A stretch of 64,000 nucleotides of DNA, from contig JBEKKX010000012.1 in the NCBI GenBank assembly GCA_050010515.1, forward strand, positions 1 through 64,000, in the 5' to 3' direction. The notes under the pieces are model-generated. The model did no database searches. It was not told the DNA's origin and saw only the letters and a program-made list of their open reading frames with translations. How positions within the stretch are numbered: the stretch's first letter is position 1; each line of letters starts with the position of its first letter. The DNA is from Candidatus Bathyarchaeia archaeon. Its GTDB lineage: Archaea > Thermoproteota > Bathyarchaeia > Bathyarchaeales > Bathycorpusculaceae. Made by a program: the position numbers and the translations under genes. Positions 46,474 through 52,131 of this stretch are shown piece after piece.

Positions 46474-47394
46474 ATGGAGTTTCAAGGAAGAGATATTATA
46501 TCCATTGAAGATTTTTCTCGCCAAGAAATCGACTACATCCTTGATGTCAGCCGATCCATGGAGCCCCTCGCCTCAAAAGGTTCAGATATGCTTAAGGGAA
46601 AAATCCTTGCAACACTGTTTTTTGAGCCTAGCACTCGTACGCGTTTAAGCTTTGAAACAGCAATGCTAAAACTAGGCGGGTCCAACATTGGCTTTGCGGA
46701 TGCTGAAATTGCATCGGTCAAGAAAGGCGAAAACTTGGCGGATACTATTCGCACTGTCGAGAACTATGCTGATGCAATAGCGCTTAGGCACAGTTTGGAA
46801 GGTGCTGCTAAATTGGCTGCGGAGTTTTCTAAGGTTCCAATAATAAACGGTGGCACCGGCGCAGAGGAGCATCCGACGCAAGCGTTCATTGACTTATATA
46901 CTATGCGCAAAGAAAAAGGCAAGATAGACGGGTTAAAAGTAGCCGTAATCGGTGATTTACGGTATGGACGCACTGTTCACTCGCTTGCCTACGCACTTGC
47001 ACTCTACAACATAGATCTCTACCTTGTCTCCCCTGAAACACTCCGCATGCGAAAAGACGTGCTCCAAACAATAAAAAACACGATTCCAGTAACTGAAGAC
47101 GCCAACTTGGAAACCATAATGCCGCAAATTGACGTCTTATATGTCACCCGCATTCAGAAGGAACGTTTTCCAGACGCAGCGGAGTACGCCAAAGTTAAAG
47201 GTACCTATAGAATTGACTTGAAAACTTTGAAAAATGCAAAGAAAGACATGATAATTCTGCATCCGCTTCCGCGTGTGGATGAAATTGCCGCTGAAGTTGA
47301 CAGTACTCCGCAGGCGCGTTATTTCCAGCAGGTCTGGAACGGCATTGTAGTACGAATGGCGCTTCTGTCGCTTGTGCTTGGCGCCGTCAAATAA
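46474..47394 (+). CDS. pyrB: Aspartate carbamoyltransferase catalytic subunit
   Basis: FFEPSTRTRLSFE, HPTQ, GDLRYGRT, TRIQKERF, HPLPR. Confidence 0.97.
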   Translation: MEFQGRDIISIEDFSRQEIDYILDVSRSMEPLASKGSDMLKGKILATLFFEPSTRTRLSFETAMLKLGGSNIGFADAEIASVKKGENLADTIRTVENYADAIALRHSLEGAAKLAAEFSKVPIINGGTGAEEHPTQAFIDLYTMRKEKGKIDGLKVAVIGDLRYGRTVHSLAYALALYNIDLYLVSPETLRMRKDVLQTIKNTIPVTEDANLETIMPQIDVLYVTRIQKERFPDAAEYAKVKGTYRIDLKTLKNAKKDMIILHPLPRVDEIAAEVDSTPQARYFQQVWNGIVVRMALLSLVLGAVK

Positions 47395-47398
47395 GCTT

Positions 47399-49615
47399 TC
47401 ATGTAGAAGTGAAGCGGTCGAACGTTACCAGATTGCTCATGGAGCCGCATGATGGGCATTTATGCAATGTTCCGAGCCAGCTTTTTTTACAGTTATCGCA
47501 GAAGCTAATTATTCGATTATAAGTGAAGAATTCCAAGGATTGGTTTTCAATTAAGCGCTGGGTCAAATCCATTAGTGCTTCAGGCTTAAACTCAGCGCCT
47601 TCCAAGTCTATAATGTCTAAGGTTCCCCCAGCGTTTAGCCTTTTCATTTTTTGCGTCGTTTCCAACATTTCAGATGGTATGCTGAGGGTTTCACCAGCTT
47701 TAACTTGGAACCTGTTTGCTGTTGAGTAATAGGGTTTTTCTCTTGTTCCTGAGAACTTTACCTTGGCCACACCGTATTTTTCGATGTCTAATTGGGCGAG
47801 CCTTTCTGATGCTTCAGAATTGCTAAGTATTACAGGGTACAAGCGTTTTCCATGTTTCCTGCCGATTTTCTGCTTGAAAGCCAAAATGTTCTGAATTGTT
47901 TCCTCGGCAAACTTGCGGCTCTCTTCCGAGTTTATGCTTTTTTCAGTGAAAGCTTCTACGGCTTCTTTGAACCCAGCTAAATTTATTATCCGTGAGCAGT
48001 TTTCTAGCCTGAAGTATGTGTCTCCACTGGTGTTTTTTAGCAGGAAAGGCAATGAGTTTTTTCCGAATTGCTTGAGTGCATTGTTTTTTACTCCTAAAGC
48101 TCGGGCGGCAAGTTCAAAACGTTCTCTCACTAAATCGAAAAACTTGTTTTTATCCTTCTCACTTTCTTGAGCGATTCTTGGCAAATTAATTGTTACACAA
48201 CCAAGACAGCCTGTGCGAAGGGTGTCGGTTTCCCAGTCTCCAGTAAAGTCAGGTGTAAGTTTAACTCCCGAAGCGGAAAAAACTGTGTTTTCTGCTTCTT
48301 TCTTTATGGTGTTGGCAAAGTAGGGTGTTCCTTTTTCCGTTGCCAACTGGTGGACTTTGAGGAGAACTGCCTTTGCGTTTTCATCTGGTAAAGTATCTTT
48401 GTTAATTTTTATGACCAGTTTGGGATTGAGCAGGGGCTTCTGAGAACTCTCTTCCGTGAAGACTTCAATGATAAGTGATGCTAAAAGTTGGCTTTCTTGG
48501 GTGAAGTCACTGTATTTGCCGCATATTTTTCCTTGAGGACCAATTGCTTCTTTTTCCGAGGTTAATTTTGGAATTAAAAGCTCAAGCCCCAACGTTGCGT
48601 TGGCATGCTGGTTTAGGTTTAAAATGAATAAGCGTAGGTTTTCCTTTATTCTTGCTGTTTCAGCGCCTTTTGCAAAGGGAGCGAGAAAAACGTTGAAGTA
48701 ATCGCACGTTTGAGTTCGGTTTGTTTCTTTGCTGGCATGTAAGAGAACGTTGAAGGCAACTGCCAACGCTGATTCAAAGTTACTCGGAGGCTCCATTGAA
48801 ACTTGCAGTGGATTATCCAGTTTGAGGCCGTTTTGGAAGAAAAACCTCAGGTCATGGCTGATCTCGTCTGGTTTTAGTATCCATGTGCCTAAGTCGTCAA
48901 TGTGGATGGCGCCTGAGAGGTGAGCGTCAGCTATGTCTCTTGGGAAAATGTTGAGCAAAGTGTACTCGCCAAGGACGGCTTGGCCTGCTTTTGTAAGTAA
49001 CGTTGCTGAGTCAGTGGGGTCATCCTTTGATTCTAATGAAGTCGTTACCTCATGTACAGGCATGCCTACTCTTGTGAGTTTATGGCGGTATTCTTCATAG
49101 CCCTTCTCAACCAAAATGCCATTAACAATTTCCCTGATTAGGGATGCTGTGAGGTATTTTGTTTTTGATTTAACTAGGCGTTTTTCAGCTTCTTTAGCCG
49201 CTTTCTGCGCTAATTCAGCTGGAACTTTTGCTTCTTTTATAAGTGAATTGGCTATTTTGTTTGCATCAAACTCTTCCACTGTTAAATGTGATGTGCGGAC
49301 AAGCATTCCTCTGGGTTTAAATGCTTTCTTCTCGATGCGGTCAGCTACGTCGAGAACCATTTTGCCAAGGTCAGTTAGATAGTATTTTTTTGCTTCAACA
49401 TCTGCTTCAACCAAATCTGCCTTTAACAGAAATTTTAGGTGGTAGGCAAATCTGCCGGCGTCTCGGCTGGGGTTCATTTTTAACTGGTTCATTAATTCAG
49501 TGTATGAGAGAGCGCTTTTGTCGAATAGTAAGTTGAGGATTTGCAGTCTGAGAGGTGAAGAAACGGCTTTGAGCACTTTCACGCCGTGTGCACGATGCGA
49601 TGGCTGATTTACCAT
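47399..49615 (-). CDS. ArsR-wHTH + ATP-cone + class III ribonucleotide reductase-like fusion, apparently catalytically degenerate
   Basis: LRLQIL…FAYHLKFL…YYLTDLG (wHTH); EEFDANKIANSL…REIVN (ATP cone); ADAHLSGAIHIDD, GTPYF, TINLPR, GG, CxxC…CxxC (NrdD); ends DRFTST without the R(I/V)xGY glycyl motif. Confidence 0.88.
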   Translation of the reverse strand: MVNQPSHRAHGVKVLKAVSSPLRLQILNLLFDKSALSYTELMNQLKMNPSRDAGRFAYHLKFLLKADLVEADVEAKKYYLTDLGKMVLDVADRIEKKAFKPRGMLVRTSHLTVEEFDANKIANSLIKEAKVPAELAQKAAKEAEKRLVKSKTKYLTASLIREIVNGILVEKGYEEYRHKLTRVGMPVHEVTTSLESKDDPTDSATLLTKAGQAVLGEYTLLNIFPRDIADAHLSGAIHIDDLGTWILKPDEISHDLRFFFQNGLKLDNPLQVSMEPPSNFESALAVAFNVLLHASKETNRTQTCDYFNVFLAPFAKGAETARIKENLRLFILNLNQHANATLGLELLIPKLTSEKEAIGPQGKICGKYSDFTQESQLLASLIIEVFTEESSQKPLLNPKLVIKINKDTLPDENAKAVLLKVHQLATEKGTPYFANTIKKEAENTVFSASGVKLTPDFTGDWETDTLRTGCLGCVTINLPRIAQESEKDKNKFFDLVRERFELAARALGVKNNALKQFGKNSLPFLLKNTSGDTYFRLENCSRIINLAGFKEAVEAFTEKSINSEESRKFAEETIQNILAFKQKIGRKHGKRLYPVILSNSEASERLAQLDIEKYGVAKVKFSGTREKPYYSTANRFQVKAGETLSIPSEMLETTQKMKRLNAGGTLDIIDLEGAEFKPEALMDLTQRLIENQSLEFFTYNRIISFCDNCKKSWLGTLHKCPSCGSMSNLVTFDRFTST

Positions 49616-49911
49616 AAACCCTTTTCCCCTTCGGCTCCCAGATTGGCGCTCTACCTATAATTCAGTGGCAGAGTTTAAACTTAGCTAAAGGCTTTATTTA
49701 AAGCAAAACTAAAATTCTCAACGCTTTCGTACAAATCAAGCATAACTGAAAAACGAGGGCTAAAGTGCTTAAAAGGTAAGTGATGAAACGACATTCCAGT
49801 GTAGGGGAAAGATTGGTTGAAGTGAAAGCGGTGGAAAGCATTTGTTGTAGCTTGTTTGAGACAACAAATTTTCATATAGTTTAAACGCTACTAAAGATAA
49901 GTTGAAATTTC

Positions 49912-50058
49912 ATGATTTCGTGTTGCAATGTTATCTGTCCAAAATGCGGAAAAGAGCTTGCTAAACCTGATAAAAAATTAGAGAACTCTGTCTTCTGCAT
50001 AGCAATTTACACATGTGATGTATGTGGCACGACATTCAAGTATTCTAAGTCATTTTAG
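49912..50058 (+). CDS. 48-aa zinc-ribbon microprotein
   Basis: MISCCNVICPKCGKELAKPDKKLENSVFCIAIYTCDVCGTTFKYSKSF*. Confidence 0.65.
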   Translation: MISCCNVICPKCGKELAKPDKKLENSVFCIAIYTCDVCGTTFKYSKSF

Positions 50059-50471
50059 CTATTTGGCTTGCAGATGCCCAATTCAGTTTTTTGCTGTTAA
50101 ACTTCACATTCGGCGATATTTCTTATTAATTTCCTTGTCTTCTCCATAAATTATGCTTTTTATACTGAGCACAAAGAGGAATCACGCAAAAAAACACACT
50201 AATTTATCGCTTTGTTGCTTCAAACTGTGACAACATTATTTTATATTCTTTAGAATCGTAACCAGATGACAAGAAAGAAGAAGGAATCAGCTAAGAGCCC
50301 AGTTGAAACATGAGATCCCTAAGAAATCGCCCATCTTTCCTAGGCTGCTAAATAATCAAAATAAAAAAGTCGATAACTCAAAACCTTGTTATTGTAAAGG
50401 CACAGTCACATCATTATTTATCATTCAAGACACACCTAGTATTTACAACCACGCAGAAAGGATTAGCCTAA

Positions 50472-50567
50472 AAGCGTGAGTCGATGGTTAACTTAGATGC
50501 AGGCGAATGATTCCCCTCTCTCTTTCCTGAAATTTTTTGTTTGCGTCTAAGCTAACCTATTTCGCTT
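50472..50567 (+). ncRNA. Candidate structured RNA hairpin upstream of nop5
   Basis: About 22-bp stem 50486-50507/50536-50557 with G-U pairs on the + strand, basal AAGCG/CGCTT, loop TGA…CTGA. Confidence 0.35.
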
Positions 50568-50847
50568 AAACCCGCAATTATTTTATAGTTCCATCAAATA
50601 AAAACATAGTGTCTTTAATTTTATCCCATTTTCCCTGTTGCGAGAGGGCATTCAAGCGGTGGCTTGTGAGCCTGTTTGGCTATACAGAAATTCTATTCAA
50701 AAATAGGAAGGGGAAGTAGATTTGGCATTAGAGCAGTCTTTAAAGAGACCGATAACATGGAAAAATACGGTTCTTTCAATTTAAGGCAAAGAAACTATTT
50801 ATTAAGTTAGAGCAATGACAATAGTTAGTTTATTGGGGCTCAGAAAC

Positions 50848-52131
50848 ATGAAAACATTCATAATCCAGTTTCCATACGGAGTAGCAGCTTTCGACGACAA
50901 AAACAGTTTAGCAGAGAAGGTTCTGTTTCCAAAAAAACCTCAGGCAGCAGCAAGAAGCTTGCTTAAAGCTGAAGCCGGAAAAATGTCCGACGAACTATTC
51001 TCATTAATTTCCCTTCTAAAAAACGTAGGTTACGACGCTTTTGTTTTTGAAAACGCCAACTTGGCAGAAGAAGTTCAACGCAAAATGAACGTTACCGTGG
51101 AAGTGGCGAAACCTGCCGAAGCTGAAGTTCTCCGTTCACTCATGAATGAAGTTGCAGTTGAATCAGGCTTTGTAAAAGATGAACAAGACCTAAGCCTTTG
51201 GAACCGCAACGTCAGCTTGGAACTTGCCAAGTTAAGAATAAAAGGTGCCTCCGAAAAAAGAGACCTAATCATCGCTCAGGGCATTCAGACGCTGGATGAT
51301 TTAGACCGCACAGTCAACCTATTCATGGGCAGGCTTAGAGAATGGTACGGCGTGTACTTCCCAGAGCTTGACCGCTTAATCGAAAAACATGAAACTTATG
51401 CTCGGCTAGTCATGAATTTAGGCGACAGAGAAAGCTACACAGCAGAAGCCTTGGAAAAGGAAAATATTCCTAAAGAAAGAGCAGGATTAGTCGCTAAAGC
51501 TGCTGAATCATCCATGGGCGCAGACATCGCTGAACGTGATTTAGAGCAGATACAAGCCTTAGCTAAAAACGTGCTTGAATTTTATGAACTGCGCAAGAAC
51601 ATGGAGAACTATATTGATAGAACCATGGAGGAAATGGCGCCCAACGTACGTGCAGTTGCAGGTGCACTTCTCGGTGCACGCTTAATAGCCATAGCTGGCA
51701 GCCTGCGAACCTTGGCTATGAGACCAGCAAGCACTATTCAAGTTTTAGGTGCAGAAAAAGCGCTGTTTCGCTCCTTGAAAACTGGGGCTAGACCGCCAAA
51801 GCACGGCTTAATCTTCCAGCATACACTGTTGCATGATGCTAAGAGGTGGCAGAGAGGAAAAATCGCAAGGGTAATCGCTGGGAAACTAGCCATCGCCGCT
51901 AGAGCTGACGCTTTTGGAGGTCATTTTATCGGAGATAGGTTAAAAGCGGACATAAACAAGCGACTGGAAGAAATACGCGAGAAATACAAGGAGCCGCCGC
52001 CACCTAAAGAAAGAAAGCCAGAGCAAAGACCAGAAAGACGGGAACAACAATTCAGGGAAGGTGACCGAGGCGGAAGACGTTATGGCGGCGGTCAGAATCG
52101 GAGAAGAGACAGGCGTGCACGTCAAGGTTAA
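50848..52131 (+). CDS. nop5: C/D box RNP protein Nop5 (Nop56/58)
   Basis: RLREWYG.YFPEL, MAPN, PASTIQVLGAEKALF, PPKHGLIF, RGKIAR. Confidence 0.97.
   Translation: MKTFIIQFPYGVAAFDDKNSLAEKVLFPKKPQAAARSLLKAEAGKMSDELFSLISLLKNVGYDAFVFENANLAEEVQRKMNVTVEVAKPAEAEVLRSLMNEVAVESGFVKDEQDLSLWNRNVSLELAKLRIKGASEKRDLIIAQGIQTLDDLDRTVNLFMGRLREWYGVYFPELDRLIEKHETYARLVMNLGDRESYTAEALEKENIPKERAGLVAKAAESSMGADIAERDLEQIQALAKNVLEFYELRKNMENYIDRTMEEMAPNVRAVAGALLGARLIAIAGSLRTLAMRPASTIQVLGAEKALFRSLKTGARPPKHGLIFQHTLLHDAKRWQRGKIARVIAGKLAIAARADAFGGHFIGDRLKADINKRLEEIREKYKEPPPPKERKPEQRPERREQQFREGDRGGRRYGGGQNRRRDRRARQG

What the first reader, a model, noticed from the sequence alone, without database searches (positions are those of the whole stretch)
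47399..49615. DNA-binding winged helix fused to an ATP-cone and an apparently dead class III ribonucleotide reductase: candidate nucleotide-sensing transcription factor
Seen: an intact 738-aa ORF with an ArsR-type wHTH, an ATP-cone and a full NrdD-like body retaining the C-terminal Zn site (CDNC…CPSC). It ends LVTFDRFTST* where class III RNRs carry R(I/V)xGY. The finger-loop position upstream of GDWETDTLRTG reads FSASGVKL instead of MGCR/SCCR, the Cys expected just after HIHD is absent (KPDEISHDL), and no NrdG activase is adjacent. Established: NrdD needs the glycyl radical and a thiyl Cys; ATP-cones bind ATP/dATP, and in bacterial NrdR they regulate transcription. Inference: a pseudoenzyme whose allosteric (d)NTP sites control DNA binding, an archaeal analogue of NrdR, or a regulatory partner of an active NrdD. 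It abuts pyrB tail-to-tail, 4 bp apart. Caveat: a non-canonical TGCLGC lies near the active site.
Basis: partly seen in the sequence, partly recalled or inferred. Interest (0 to 1): 0.82.

Follow-up and report, generated by a model that had tools for sequence, protein, structure and literature searches.

The report
Dead ribonucleotide reductase turned gene regulator
This archaeal protein joins a DNA-binding domain and a nucleotide-sensing ATP-cone to a catalytically dead anaerobic ribonucleotide reductase; it is conserved in many archaea, usually beside the real reductase gene, and is most likely an undescribed regulator of DNA-precursor supply.

Summary
Window 47399-49615 (-) is an intact 738-aa ORF with an ArsR-type winged helix, an ATP-cone and a full NrdD core with its Cys4 zinc site. 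It lacks the glycyl-radical motif, the finger-loop Cys, the beta-A Cys and the Asn-X-Asn substrate flap.

It is not a truncation or an error. It belongs to a large archaeal family with this architecture, under strong purifying selection (dN/dS 0.09 overall, about 0.035 on the winged helix and the cone). The N-terminal module is single-copy in 190 of 301 sampled genomes of the phylum. Source names place members in Bathyarchaeia, ammonia oxidisers, Methanosuratincola, Culexarchaeum and Asgard archaea.

The gene lies directly upstream of the organism's real reductase gene. That gene is class III in sister Bathyarchaeia families and class II in 40 of 43 listed Nitrosopumilaceae-like genomes, which have no NrdD or NrdG. 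A role as partner of an active NrdD is therefore unlikely.

The window's own family has lost the adjacent nrdD, so the gene abuts pyrB. This family alone has acquired an nrdR-nrdD-nrdG operon.

Best reading (about 0.6): a nucleotide-responsive transcription factor for ribonucleotide reductase and dNTP supply, an archaeal counterpart of NrdR. DNA binding, nucleotide binding and the operator are untested. I found no publication on it.

The parts
47399..49615 (-). Whole gene (738 aa plus stop): winged helix, ATP-cone and dead NrdD core ('psi-NrdD')
   Evidence: ORF; Pfam architecture; orthologue in 40 of 41 related genomes; dN/dS 0.091
49349..49576 (-). ArsR-type winged helix-turn-helix, residues 14-89 (Pfam DUF7347/HTH_5), with recognition-helix signature DAGRFAYHLK
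   Evidence: Pfam. A profile of 15 family members hits ArsR/SmtB-family structures (HlyU 4e-6, CadC, ArsR, CzrA, NmtR, NolR). R23, H59, Y78 and G84 are invariant. dN/dS 0.034
49046..49303 (-). ATP-cone (residues 105-176) plus conserved connector (to about residue 190); the hairpin reads V-R-T-S
   Evidence: Pfam ATP-cone 30.7 bits. This is the most conserved stretch of the family (V106, R107, I121, L125, E128, R161, L168, R182, G184, P186 invariant in 68 sequences). It shares its signature with intact archaeal NrdDs. dN/dS 0.036
47426..49003 (-). NrdD-like core, residues 205-730, without beta-A Cys (E251), finger-loop Cys (A448-K452), NxN flap or glycyl-radical domain
   Evidence: Pfam NRDD 240.7 bits. 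Family profile against solved NrdDs gives E 2e-42 to 4e-34 over the whole core. Site tables. dN/dS 0.111
47447..47500 (-). Cys4 zinc ribbon (C706, C709, C720, C723), kept although the glycyl-radical domain it supports in real NrdD is gone
   Evidence: Invariant in 68 of 68 aligned family members. Cys in 78-79 of 86 wHTH rows, the rest gapped
49652..49684 (-). Conserved promoter-region block upstream of the gene (CTAAGTTTAAAC...GAATTATAGGTA): probable BRE/TATA box plus a conserved block about 20 nt downstream
   Evidence: Conserved in an alignment of 69 distinct upstream regions. The composite pattern occurs once in the genome. Reading it as TATA box plus operator is inference
46474..47394 (+). 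pyrB (aspartate carbamoyltransferase catalytic chain), convergent neighbour 4 bp away. This is conserved synteny, not shown to be functional
   Evidence: Pfam. pyrB is convergent within 600 nt downstream in 88 of 97 orthologous loci with enough flank. In sister families an intact nrdD lies between the two genes

Best explanation
The gene encodes a pseudoenzyme transcription factor. A duplicate of an archaeal class III ribonucleotide reductase (NrdD) gained an N-terminal ArsR-type winged helix and lost everything needed for radical chemistry. It kept the ATP-cone, the connector, the core fold and the zinc ribbon.

Proposed mechanism (inferred): ATP or dATP binding to the cone changes the arrangement of the cone and connector on the dimeric NrdD-like scaffold. 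That change repositions the two winged helices and so changes binding to operators at reductase and dNTP-supply promoters. The logic is that of bacterial NrdR, built from different parts.

Shown: the architecture, loss of the catalytic residues, purifying selection, wide distribution, and gene linkage to reductase genes of two classes. Inferred: DNA binding, nucleotide binding, dimerisation, and the direction of regulation.

In the window's own family the adjacent reductase gene has been lost and an nrdR-nrdD-nrdG operon is present, so the local target set is unknown.
For: 1. Dead as a reductase. In a 116-row alignment, the beta-A Cys is present in 16 of 16 Gly-bearing NrdDs and 0 of 86 wHTH rows. 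The thiyl-Cys column shows 16 of 16 against 0 of 86. The NxN flap shows 16 of 16 against 4 of 86. None of the 86 has the R-x-x-G-Y motif as I defined it. Among 102 close orthologues the S-G-X-K loop position varies freely (V, I, L, T, F, C, A, D, Y, S).

2. A real, constrained gene. Median dN/dS is 0.091 overall, 0.034 for the wHTH, 0.036 for the cone and 0.111 for the core (209 pairs). In Nitrosopumilaceae-like genomes the values are 0.075, 0.014, 0.027 and 0.083 (80 pairs).

3. DNA-binding module. The wHTH profile matches ArsR/SmtB regulators.

4. Sensor module. The cone and connector are the most conserved part of the protein and share their signature with intact archaeal NrdDs.

5. Linkage to reductase genes.
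- It lies upstream of and co-oriented with an intact nrdD in 8 fetched loci of sister families. In at least one of these (L043) a glutaredoxin-like gene lies between them.
- It lies upstream of and co-oriented with a class II reductase in 40 of 43 listed Nitrosopumilaceae-like genomes.
- It lies next to a class II reductase in another Bathyarchaeia family (L139).

6. An open niche. The NrdR zinc ribbon was found in 17 of 301 sampled genomes, all in the window's family, and in 0 of 284 elsewhere. The wHTH-plus-cone module was found in 190 of 301. PMC9110341 (passages read) states that NrdR is rare in archaea.

7. One origin is consistent with the tree. A single branch (local support 99) separates 86 wHTH rows plus P0175 from all 29 rows without a wHTH.
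Against: - No operator was identified. The conserved block upstream of the gene is unique in the genome, and motifs from sister-family nrdD promoters have no counterpart here.
- In the window's own family the gene is not next to any reductase gene, and that family has NrdR with NrdR-box-like repeats upstream of its operon.
- The ATP-cone is divergent. It scores only 30.7 bits, and the canonical K-R hairpin reads T-S. The same is true of its intact NrdD relatives. On its own the cone finds no ATP-cone among solved structures.
- The substrate flap is lost, so nucleotide binding by the core is doubtful.
- 14 of 86 wHTH rows keep a Gly in the radical column (P0169 reads RRLGYLEP), and 10 of 86 have some Cys in the finger window (L043 'TGCRF'). 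15 of 102 close orthologues have Cys at S-G-X-K. None combines these with a beta-A Cys.
- One genus genome (G022) carries the gene with several in-frame stops.
- Expression was not checked and no structure model could be made.
Confidence: 0.6

Rival explanations
1. It is a DNA-binding regulator, but not one specific to the reductase. It could control pyrimidine/nucleotide metabolism (pyrBI) or couple nucleotide status to replication or chromatin. The reductase linkage would then be a relic of its origin by tandem duplication of nrdD.
For: pyrB or pyrI is the neighbour in the window's family (88 of 97 loci) and in distant families (L135, L138). In the window's family the gene stays constrained although the adjacent nrdD is gone and NrdR is present. 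In some families neither gene is adjacent (L133, L134).
Against: A duplication relic cannot explain adjacency to a class II reductase, which is not its paralogue, in 40 of 43 Nitrosopumilaceae-like genomes and in L139. The pyrB arrangement is convergent, with no shared promoter.
Confidence: 0.17
2. It is a non-catalytic protein partner of a reductase, an inhibitory or scaffolding subunit that pairs with NrdD. The winged helix would then be used for something other than promoter control.
For: NrdD enzymes are dimers (PMC12662201, passages read). The core fold and zinc ribbon are retained. It is a tandem neighbour of an intact nrdD in sister families.
Against: 5 of 5 complete Nitrosopumilaceae-like genomes have it with no other NRDD-family match and no NrdG over cutoff. 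The wHTH is among the most constrained parts. In the window genome the only NrdD is 25% identical to it.
Confidence: 0.1
3. It is still an enzyme, with a non-radical activity on nucleotides carried out in the old active-site barrel.
For: The core is under purifying selection (dN/dS 0.11). Several core residues shared with real NrdD stay conserved: N477 in 86 of 86, G235 in 86 of 86, D230 in 85 of 86, R480 in 79 of 86.
Against: The finger loop and the beta-A position are hypervariable. The flap that closes over substrate is gone. The conserved residues are also conserved in real NrdD, so they may be structural. No new conserved polar cluster was seen.
Confidence: 0.05
4. It is a working anaerobic ribonucleotide reductase, as many databases name it, or it is a truncated or mis-sequenced one.
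For: Source names read 'anaerobic ribonucleoside-triphosphate reductase'. The Pfam NRDD hit is strong.
Against: All four catalytic hallmarks are missing. It scores below the NCBIfam equivalog cutoff. The same 738-aa form occurs in many genomes. It occurs in ammonia oxidisers (Nitrosotenuis cloacae by source name) that have no activase over cutoff.
Confidence: 0.01

Closest known systems
NrdR (bacterial ribonucleotide-reductase repressor: zinc ribbon plus ATP-cone)
   Same: A DNA-binding domain is followed by an ATP-cone. The gene is often encoded beside reductase genes. The proposed logic is the same: ATP/dATP sensing controls reductase transcription (PMC9110341, passages read).
   Different: The DNA-binding domain is an ArsR-type winged helix, not the NrdR zinc ribbon. 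PF22811 does not match this protein, while the genome's true NrdR does match it. This protein carries a further 550-residue dead NrdD core and a C-terminal zinc ribbon. Its cone belongs to the V-R-T-S archaeal NrdD type. The two are not homologous as whole proteins.
NrdD, class III (anaerobic) ribonucleotide reductase catalytic subunit
   Same: Homologous from the ATP-cone to the zinc ribbon: 28% identity, E 5e-77, nearly gapless against an intact archaeal NrdD. The family profile hits solved NrdDs at E 2e-42. Same Cys4 zinc site.
   Different: No glycyl-radical domain or Gly motif, no thiyl Cys, no beta-A Cys and no NxN flap. An added winged helix. Present in genomes with no NrdG over cutoff.
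ArsR/SmtB family winged-helix regulators (HlyU, CadC, ArsR, CzrA, NmtR)
   Same: The N-terminal 90 residues match this family's profile and solved structures, including the recognition-helix H-L signature.
   Different: Those proteins are stand-alone dimers of about 100-120 aa, mostly metal or redox sensors. Here the sensor would be a fused ATP-cone and dead enzyme, and no metal-site motifs were examined.
Enzyme-derived or bifunctional regulators such as BirA, PutA and NadR (recalled from general knowledge, not from any call)
   Same: A metabolic enzyme fold supplies the ligand-sensing part of a DNA-binding regulator of its own pathway.
   Different: Those proteins keep catalytic activity. This one has lost it, and I found no report of a ribonucleotide reductase being used this way.

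Membership tests
Class III ribonucleotide reductase (NrdD) | Sequence homology to the NrdD core | tested here: met
   Pfam NRDD 240.7 bits; family profile against solved NrdDs E 2e-42 to 4e-34
Class III ribonucleotide reductase (NrdD) | C-terminal glycyl-radical motif R-x-x-G-Y | tested here: not met
   The protein ends 15 residues after the zinc ribbon. The motif is absent in 86 of 86 wHTH rows as I defined it. 14 of 86 keep a Gly in that column
Class III ribonucleotide reductase (NrdD) | Thiyl-radical Cys on the finger loop (MGCR/MCCR; PMC9669993, passages read) | tested here: not met
   The query reads A448-S-G-V-K452. The column shows 16 of 16 in Gly-bearing NrdDs and 0 of 86 in wHTH rows
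Class III ribonucleotide reductase (NrdD) | Conserved beta-A Cys | tested here: not met
   E251 in the query; 16 of 16 against 0 of 86
Class III ribonucleotide reductase (NrdD) | [quoted passage not shown] | tested here: not met
   16 of 16 Gly-bearing NrdDs, 4 of 86 wHTH rows, absent in the query
Class III ribonucleotide reductase (NrdD) | Cys4 zinc site | tested here: met
   C706, C709, C720 and C723 are invariant
Class III ribonucleotide reductase (NrdD) | Curated equivalog score (NCBIfam TIGR02487) | tested here: not met
   251.7 bits against a cutoff of 326.35
Class III ribonucleotide reductase (NrdD) | Cognate NrdG activase | tested here: not met
   The genome's NrdG sits beside the other, intact NrdD. 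0 of 5 Nitrosopumilaceae-like genomes with the protein have NrdG2 over cutoff
NrdR | N-terminal NrdR-type zinc ribbon | tested here: not met
   No PF22811 hit on the query. The genome's real NrdR scores 56.3 bits
NrdR | ATP-cone | tested here: met
   PF03477 30.7 bits, cutoff 25.8; 67 of 68 aligned family members
NrdR | Encoded beside, and acting on, reductase genes | tested here: inconclusive
   Adjacency holds in sister families and in 40 of 43 Nitrosopumilaceae-like genomes, but not in the window's own family. Action on those genes was not tested
NrdR | ATP/dATP-dependent oligomerisation and DNA binding | not testable with these tools
ArsR/SmtB winged-helix regulators | wHTH with the family's recognition-helix signature | tested here: met
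   HTH_5 28.9 bits, cutoff 22; profile against HlyU, CadC, ArsR and CzrA structures, E 4e-6 to 1e-3
ArsR/SmtB winged-helix regulators | Stand-alone dimer of about 100-120 aa with metal or redox sensing sites | tested here: not met
   738 aa with a fused cone and NrdD core. Metal-site motifs were not examined

The most novel reading that the evidence does not exclude
This family is the missing master regulator of ribonucleotide reduction in much of the archaeal domain. It would be a transcription factor made by exapting a whole reductase subunit, so that the enzyme's own allosteric switch (ATP-cone plus connector on the dimeric core) now moves a pair of winged helices instead of gating an active site. 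It would also be the first ribonucleotide-reductase pseudoenzyme, and a third home for the ATP-cone beside reductases and NrdR. Because it is single-copy and universal in the sampled ammonia-oxidising archaea, it would control dNTP supply in organisms of global biogeochemical weight.
Probability: 0.45. Interest if true: 0.9.

Novelty: new variant of a known kind. Interest (0 to 1): 0.85.

Why it matters
How archaea control transcription of ribonucleotide reductase is largely unknown. NrdR is described as rare in archaea (PMC9110341, passages read), and it was found in none of the 284 sampled genomes outside one family here.

This protein gives a concrete, testable candidate. It is present in 190 of 301 sampled genomes of the phylum. 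By source names it also occurs in Asgard archaea and ammonia oxidisers.

It would also be a clear case of a radical enzyme converted into a sensor domain. [quoted passage not shown]

There is a practical point as well. Public databases name many members 'anaerobic ribonucleoside-triphosphate reductase', even in aerobic ammonia oxidisers. This can mislead metabolic reconstructions that infer anaerobic dNTP synthesis.

Tried and rejected
Truncation or sequencing error: rejected.

Active reductase: rejected.

Operator search.
- The composite block upstream of the gene occurs only once in the genome.
- Its 12-mer core gives 21 hits against 36 for the reversed control. The one other exact copy lies inside an ammonium-transporter gene.
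- The conserved motif of sister-family psi-to-nrdD spacers (TACA..ATTTT..CTAAAAAWTT) has no match in the own genome.
- GTGTCAA-N1-7-TTGA gives 11 hits, which I estimate to be about chance.
- A cross-lineage motif, GTGT[CA]AA-N2-8-T[TA]GA, is seen in 11 of 23 Nitrosopumilaceae-like psi-to-nrdJ spacers and 2 of 13 Bathyarchaeia psi-to-nrdD spacers. It was defined on the same data, so it is only a lead.

Other dead ends.
- The ATP-cone alone found no ATP-cone among solved structures.
- Rfam found nothing in 49500-50900.
- The sigma-70 promoter and terminator scan is not meaningful for an archaeon.
- The 48-aa zinc-ribbon ORF at 49912-50058 occurs only in 3 very close loci, so it is not a conserved partner.

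Literature. Ten full-text searches found no paper describing this architecture: the last for DUF7347/PF24038 with 0 papers. Subscription journals and supplements were not searchable, and supplementary files were not consulted.

Rows left out. 56 of the 150 library representatives (shorter than 600 aa or longer than 810 aa) were excluded from the 116-row alignment and tree. Alignment A1 (68 rows) was hand-picked from wHTH-bearing full-length members, so its 68 of 68 DUF7347 count is partly by construction.
Full report
THE OBSERVATION

Window 47399-49615 (-) is an intact 738-aa ORF. pyrB (46474-47394, +) ends 4 bp from its stop codon. Pfam finds an ArsR-type winged helix (HTH_5 20-70, DUF7347 14-89), an ATP-cone (105-176; 30.7 bits, cutoff 25.8) and an NRDD core (205-730; 240.7 bits). 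The NCBIfam NrdD equivalog scores 251.7 bits, below its 326.35 cutoff.

I mapped the catalytic positions against three kinds of reference: the genome's own intact NrdD (25% identity), an intact archaeal NrdD from a sister family (28% identity, E 5e-77, nearly gapless from cone to zinc ribbon), and solved T4, S. thermophilus, P. copri and T. maritima enzymes.
- The beta-A Cys is E251.
- The finger loop M(G/C)CR is A448-S-G-V-K452.
- The chain stops 15 residues after the zinc ribbon, with no R-x-x-G-Y.
- The Cys4 zinc site is intact.
- The Asn-X-Asn flap, which PMC12662201 (passages read) describes as closing the active site, is also missing.

THE REST OF THE GENOME

The assembly is 2.38 Mb in 66 contigs and 98.5% complete. 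It has one other NRDD match (660.7 bits, on contig C5), lying in an operon:
- an NrdR-like gene (zinc ribbon plus ATP-cone; Pfam);
- an NrdD with HIHDLGVLGAYC, MCCR and RVVGY;
- an NrdG (TIGR02495, 184.2 bits, the only match over cutoff).

No class I/II barrel domain was found. The organism therefore has a working class III system elsewhere, and this gene is an extra paralogue.

NOT AN ACCIDENT

- The 120 best homologues listed are 77-100% identical. All 120 carry ATP-cone plus NRDD, and 118 of 120 carry a winged-helix family.
- In 41 related genomes, 40 have a match. The one without is 65% complete. 36 of 41 also show a second, NrdD-type match.
- One genome (G022) carries the gene with in-frame stops, and G004 has a broken second copy.
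- An exhaustive library search gave 1811 relatives at E<=1e-3.

I aligned 94 of the 150 best representatives (those of 600-810 aa; 56 were dropped) together with 22 sequences from fetched loci. Of these 116 rows, 86 carry the winged helix and none of the 86 has the Gly motif. A further 16 lack the helix and have the motif. The last 14 lack both.

Counts for Gly-bearing NrdDs against wHTH rows:
- beta-A Cys: 16/16 against 0/86;
- thiyl-Cys column: 16/16 against 0/86;
- NxN flap: 16/16 against 4/86.

Remnants exist, and I report them because they cut the other way.
- 14 of 86 keep a Gly in the radical column (P0169 reads RRLGYLEP).
- 10 of 86 have some Cys in the finger window (L043 reads TGCRF).
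- 15 of 102 close orthologues have Cys at S-G-X-K, a position that otherwise wanders among V, I, L, T, F, A, D, Y and S.
- Many members keep a degenerate stump of the glycyl-radical domain (for example YSRSLAKYLPLRWW). The window's family has lost it entirely.

This looks like progressive decay after loss of function. A FastTree of the 116 rows puts the 86 wHTH rows plus P0175 on one side of a single branch (local support 99). The tree has no outgroup, so the root is not known.

SELECTION

Among 102 orthologous loci there are 209 pairs with 0.3<dS<1.5. These pairs are not independent. Median dN/dS is 0.091 overall, 0.034 for the winged helix, 0.036 for the cone and 0.111 for the core. In 23 Nitrosopumilaceae-like loci (80 pairs) the values are 0.075, 0.014, 0.027 and 0.083.

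In a 68-sequence family alignment the invariant columns cluster in three places:
- the winged helix (L30, H59, Y78, G84);
- the cone and connector (V106, R107, I121, L125, E128, R161, L168, R182, G184, P186);
- the four zinc Cys residues.

DISTRIBUTION

The N-terminal 200 residues (helix plus cone in one frame) match at E<=1e-20 in 190 of 301 genomes sampled from the phylum, covering 83 of 128 genera. There is one copy per genome in all but one listed genome. The best 80 of 598 confirmed genome loci are mostly labelled Bathyarchaeota or Bathyarchaeia.

Source names of cluster members place relatives in:
- Nitrososphaerales and Nitrosotenuis cloacae;
- Methanosuratincola;
- Culexarchaeum;
- Thermoprotei;
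- Jordarchaeia/Freyarchaeota.

The ESM Atlas lists clusters of the same architecture in Nitrososphaerota and Promethearchaeota (a lead only). The names given by sources alternate between 'anaerobic ribonucleoside-triphosphate reductase' and 'ArsR family transcriptional regulator'.

GENE CONTEXT, THE KEY NEW RESULT

In 8 fetched loci from other families of the window's order, the gene order is pyrB, then convergently an intact nrdD (SRITGY), then this gene. This gene and nrdD share a strand and are separated by spacers of 170-570 bp. Five of the eight loci (L043, L045-L048) show pyrI next to pyrB. In L043 the spacer holds a glutaredoxin-like gene (Pfam), and its pyrI and pyrB were confirmed by Pfam. 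Similar spacer ORFs in L044, L045 and L048 were read by eye only.

In the window's family the intact nrdD between this gene and pyrB is gone. pyrB is convergent within 600 nt in 88 of 97 loci with enough flank.

In the family that includes Nitrosotenuis (f19), all 44 of 44 genomes have the gene. It lies directly upstream of, and co-oriented with, a class II reductase (ATP-cone, Ribonuc_red_lgN and lgC) in 40 of the 43 genomes whose coordinates were listed. Two are divergent neighbours and one pair is split over two contigs.

In 5 of 5 complete genomes of that family, the only NRDD-family match is this gene itself, and no NrdG2 match reaches cutoff. Another Bathyarchaeia family (L139) also has the gene next to a class II reductase.

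Linkage to reductases of two non-homologous radical-generation classes is hard to explain by descent from a tandem duplication alone.

NrdR was found in 17 of 301 sampled genomes. All 17 are in the window's family (17 of 17), with 0 of 284 elsewhere.

MECHANISM

The winged-helix profile matches ArsR/SmtB regulators (HlyU 4e-6, CadC, ArsR, CzrA, NmtR, NolR). The cone shares its signature (VRTS..E.F..I..SL..E ... YLTAPLIRE.VN ... TRLG.P) with catalytically intact archaeal NrdDs.

In StNrdD the cone acts through the connector (PMC12662201, passages read). Here the connector's conserved start is kept but its NxN flap is not.

I therefore propose that nucleotide binding to the cone repositions the winged helices on a dimeric NrdD-like scaffold and so changes promoter occupancy. 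Every step after 'the domains are present and conserved' is inference.

Caveats:
- the cone's K-R hairpin reads T-S;
- no operator could be defined;
- in the window's family the local targets are unknown;
- no structure, complex or expression data could be obtained.

COMPARISON AND NOVELTY

The protein works like NrdR but fails NrdR's defining zinc ribbon. It is homologous to NrdD but fails four catalytic criteria. Its N-terminus belongs to the ArsR-type fold.

[quoted passage not shown] PMC9669993 (passages read) surveys 1,375 class III sequences and reports MGCR and MCCR as the two dominant finger-loop motifs; a term search of its text found no mention of HTH, DNA-binding or transcription. 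Ten literature searches found no description of this family.

I rate it a new variant of a known kind: a nucleotide-sensing reductase regulator with an unprecedented build.

Noticed in passing
Own genome contig C5 (L001 701-3962); not in the window: An archaeon with a bacterial-style nrdR-nrdD-nrdG operon. Inverted repeats resembling NrdR boxes (ATGTAGTGT ... ACACTACAT) lie just upstream of nrdR; the resemblance to NrdR boxes is recalled, not tested. In the phylum sample the NrdR zinc ribbon occurs only in the window's family (17 of 17, against 0 of 284 elsewhere), which suggests acquisition by transfer.
   Followed up: partly
Library proteins P0187, P0199, P0222, P0234, P0248, P0257, P0258, P0266, P0268 and others: A second kind of apparently dead NrdD without a winged helix. 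Of four tested by Pfam, three (P0187, P0199, P0234) show two ATP-cone stretches plus NRDD and P0257 shows one. They lack the Gly motif and the NxN flap (0 of 14), and most lack the Cys residues. They group with the intact NrdDs in the tree.
   Followed up: partly
L130, L131, L136, L148-L167 (Nitrosopumilaceae-like loci): GATC flanked by A/T runs is enriched upstream of the gene (4.22 per 200 nt) and in the spacer to the class II reductase (2.88 per 200 nt), against about 0.9 in coding sequence. Shuffles gave means of 12.8 and 14.3 against 97 and 68 observed. A strict triple-GATC pattern occurs 4-17 times per genome and includes the region upstream of the gene in 4 of 5 genomes. It is a possible operator or a methylation-related feature.
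   Followed up: partly
L130, L131, L136 and L148-L167, immediately upstream of the gene: A small conserved zinc-ribbon gene (C-x2-C ... C-P-x-C-G) ends just before the gene's promoter region in most of the Nitrosopumilaceae-like loci. It is visible as a conserved coding block in the upstream alignment.
   Followed up: no
window 49616-50814: A 1.2-kb stretch between this gene and nop56/58 has no ORF over 64 aa and no Rfam match. It holds a 48-aa zinc-ribbon ORF (49912-50058, +) found only in 3 very close relatives.
   Followed up: partly
G004:C4:3071-5286 and G022:C15:47582-49779 (related genomes): G004 has a second copy of the gene broken by stop codons beside the intact one. In G022 the gene's 5' half is interrupted by several stops, which could be a pseudogene or an assembly error.
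   Followed up: no
Library proteins of 996-1707 aa (for example P0173, P0176, P0188, P0221, P0232, P0238): Intact NrdD relatives that match in 2-5 separate stretches and are far longer than 700 aa. This is the pattern expected of intein-bearing NrdDs; it was not examined.
   Followed up: no
L082 (JBLNCY010000004.1, labelled Methanocella sp. MAG): A locus 67% identical to the window protein sits in a bin labelled Methanocella, among hits otherwise labelled mostly Bathyarchaeota/Bathyarchaeia (a few read Nitrososphaerota or 'uncultured archaeon'). This may be mis-binning.
   Followed up: no
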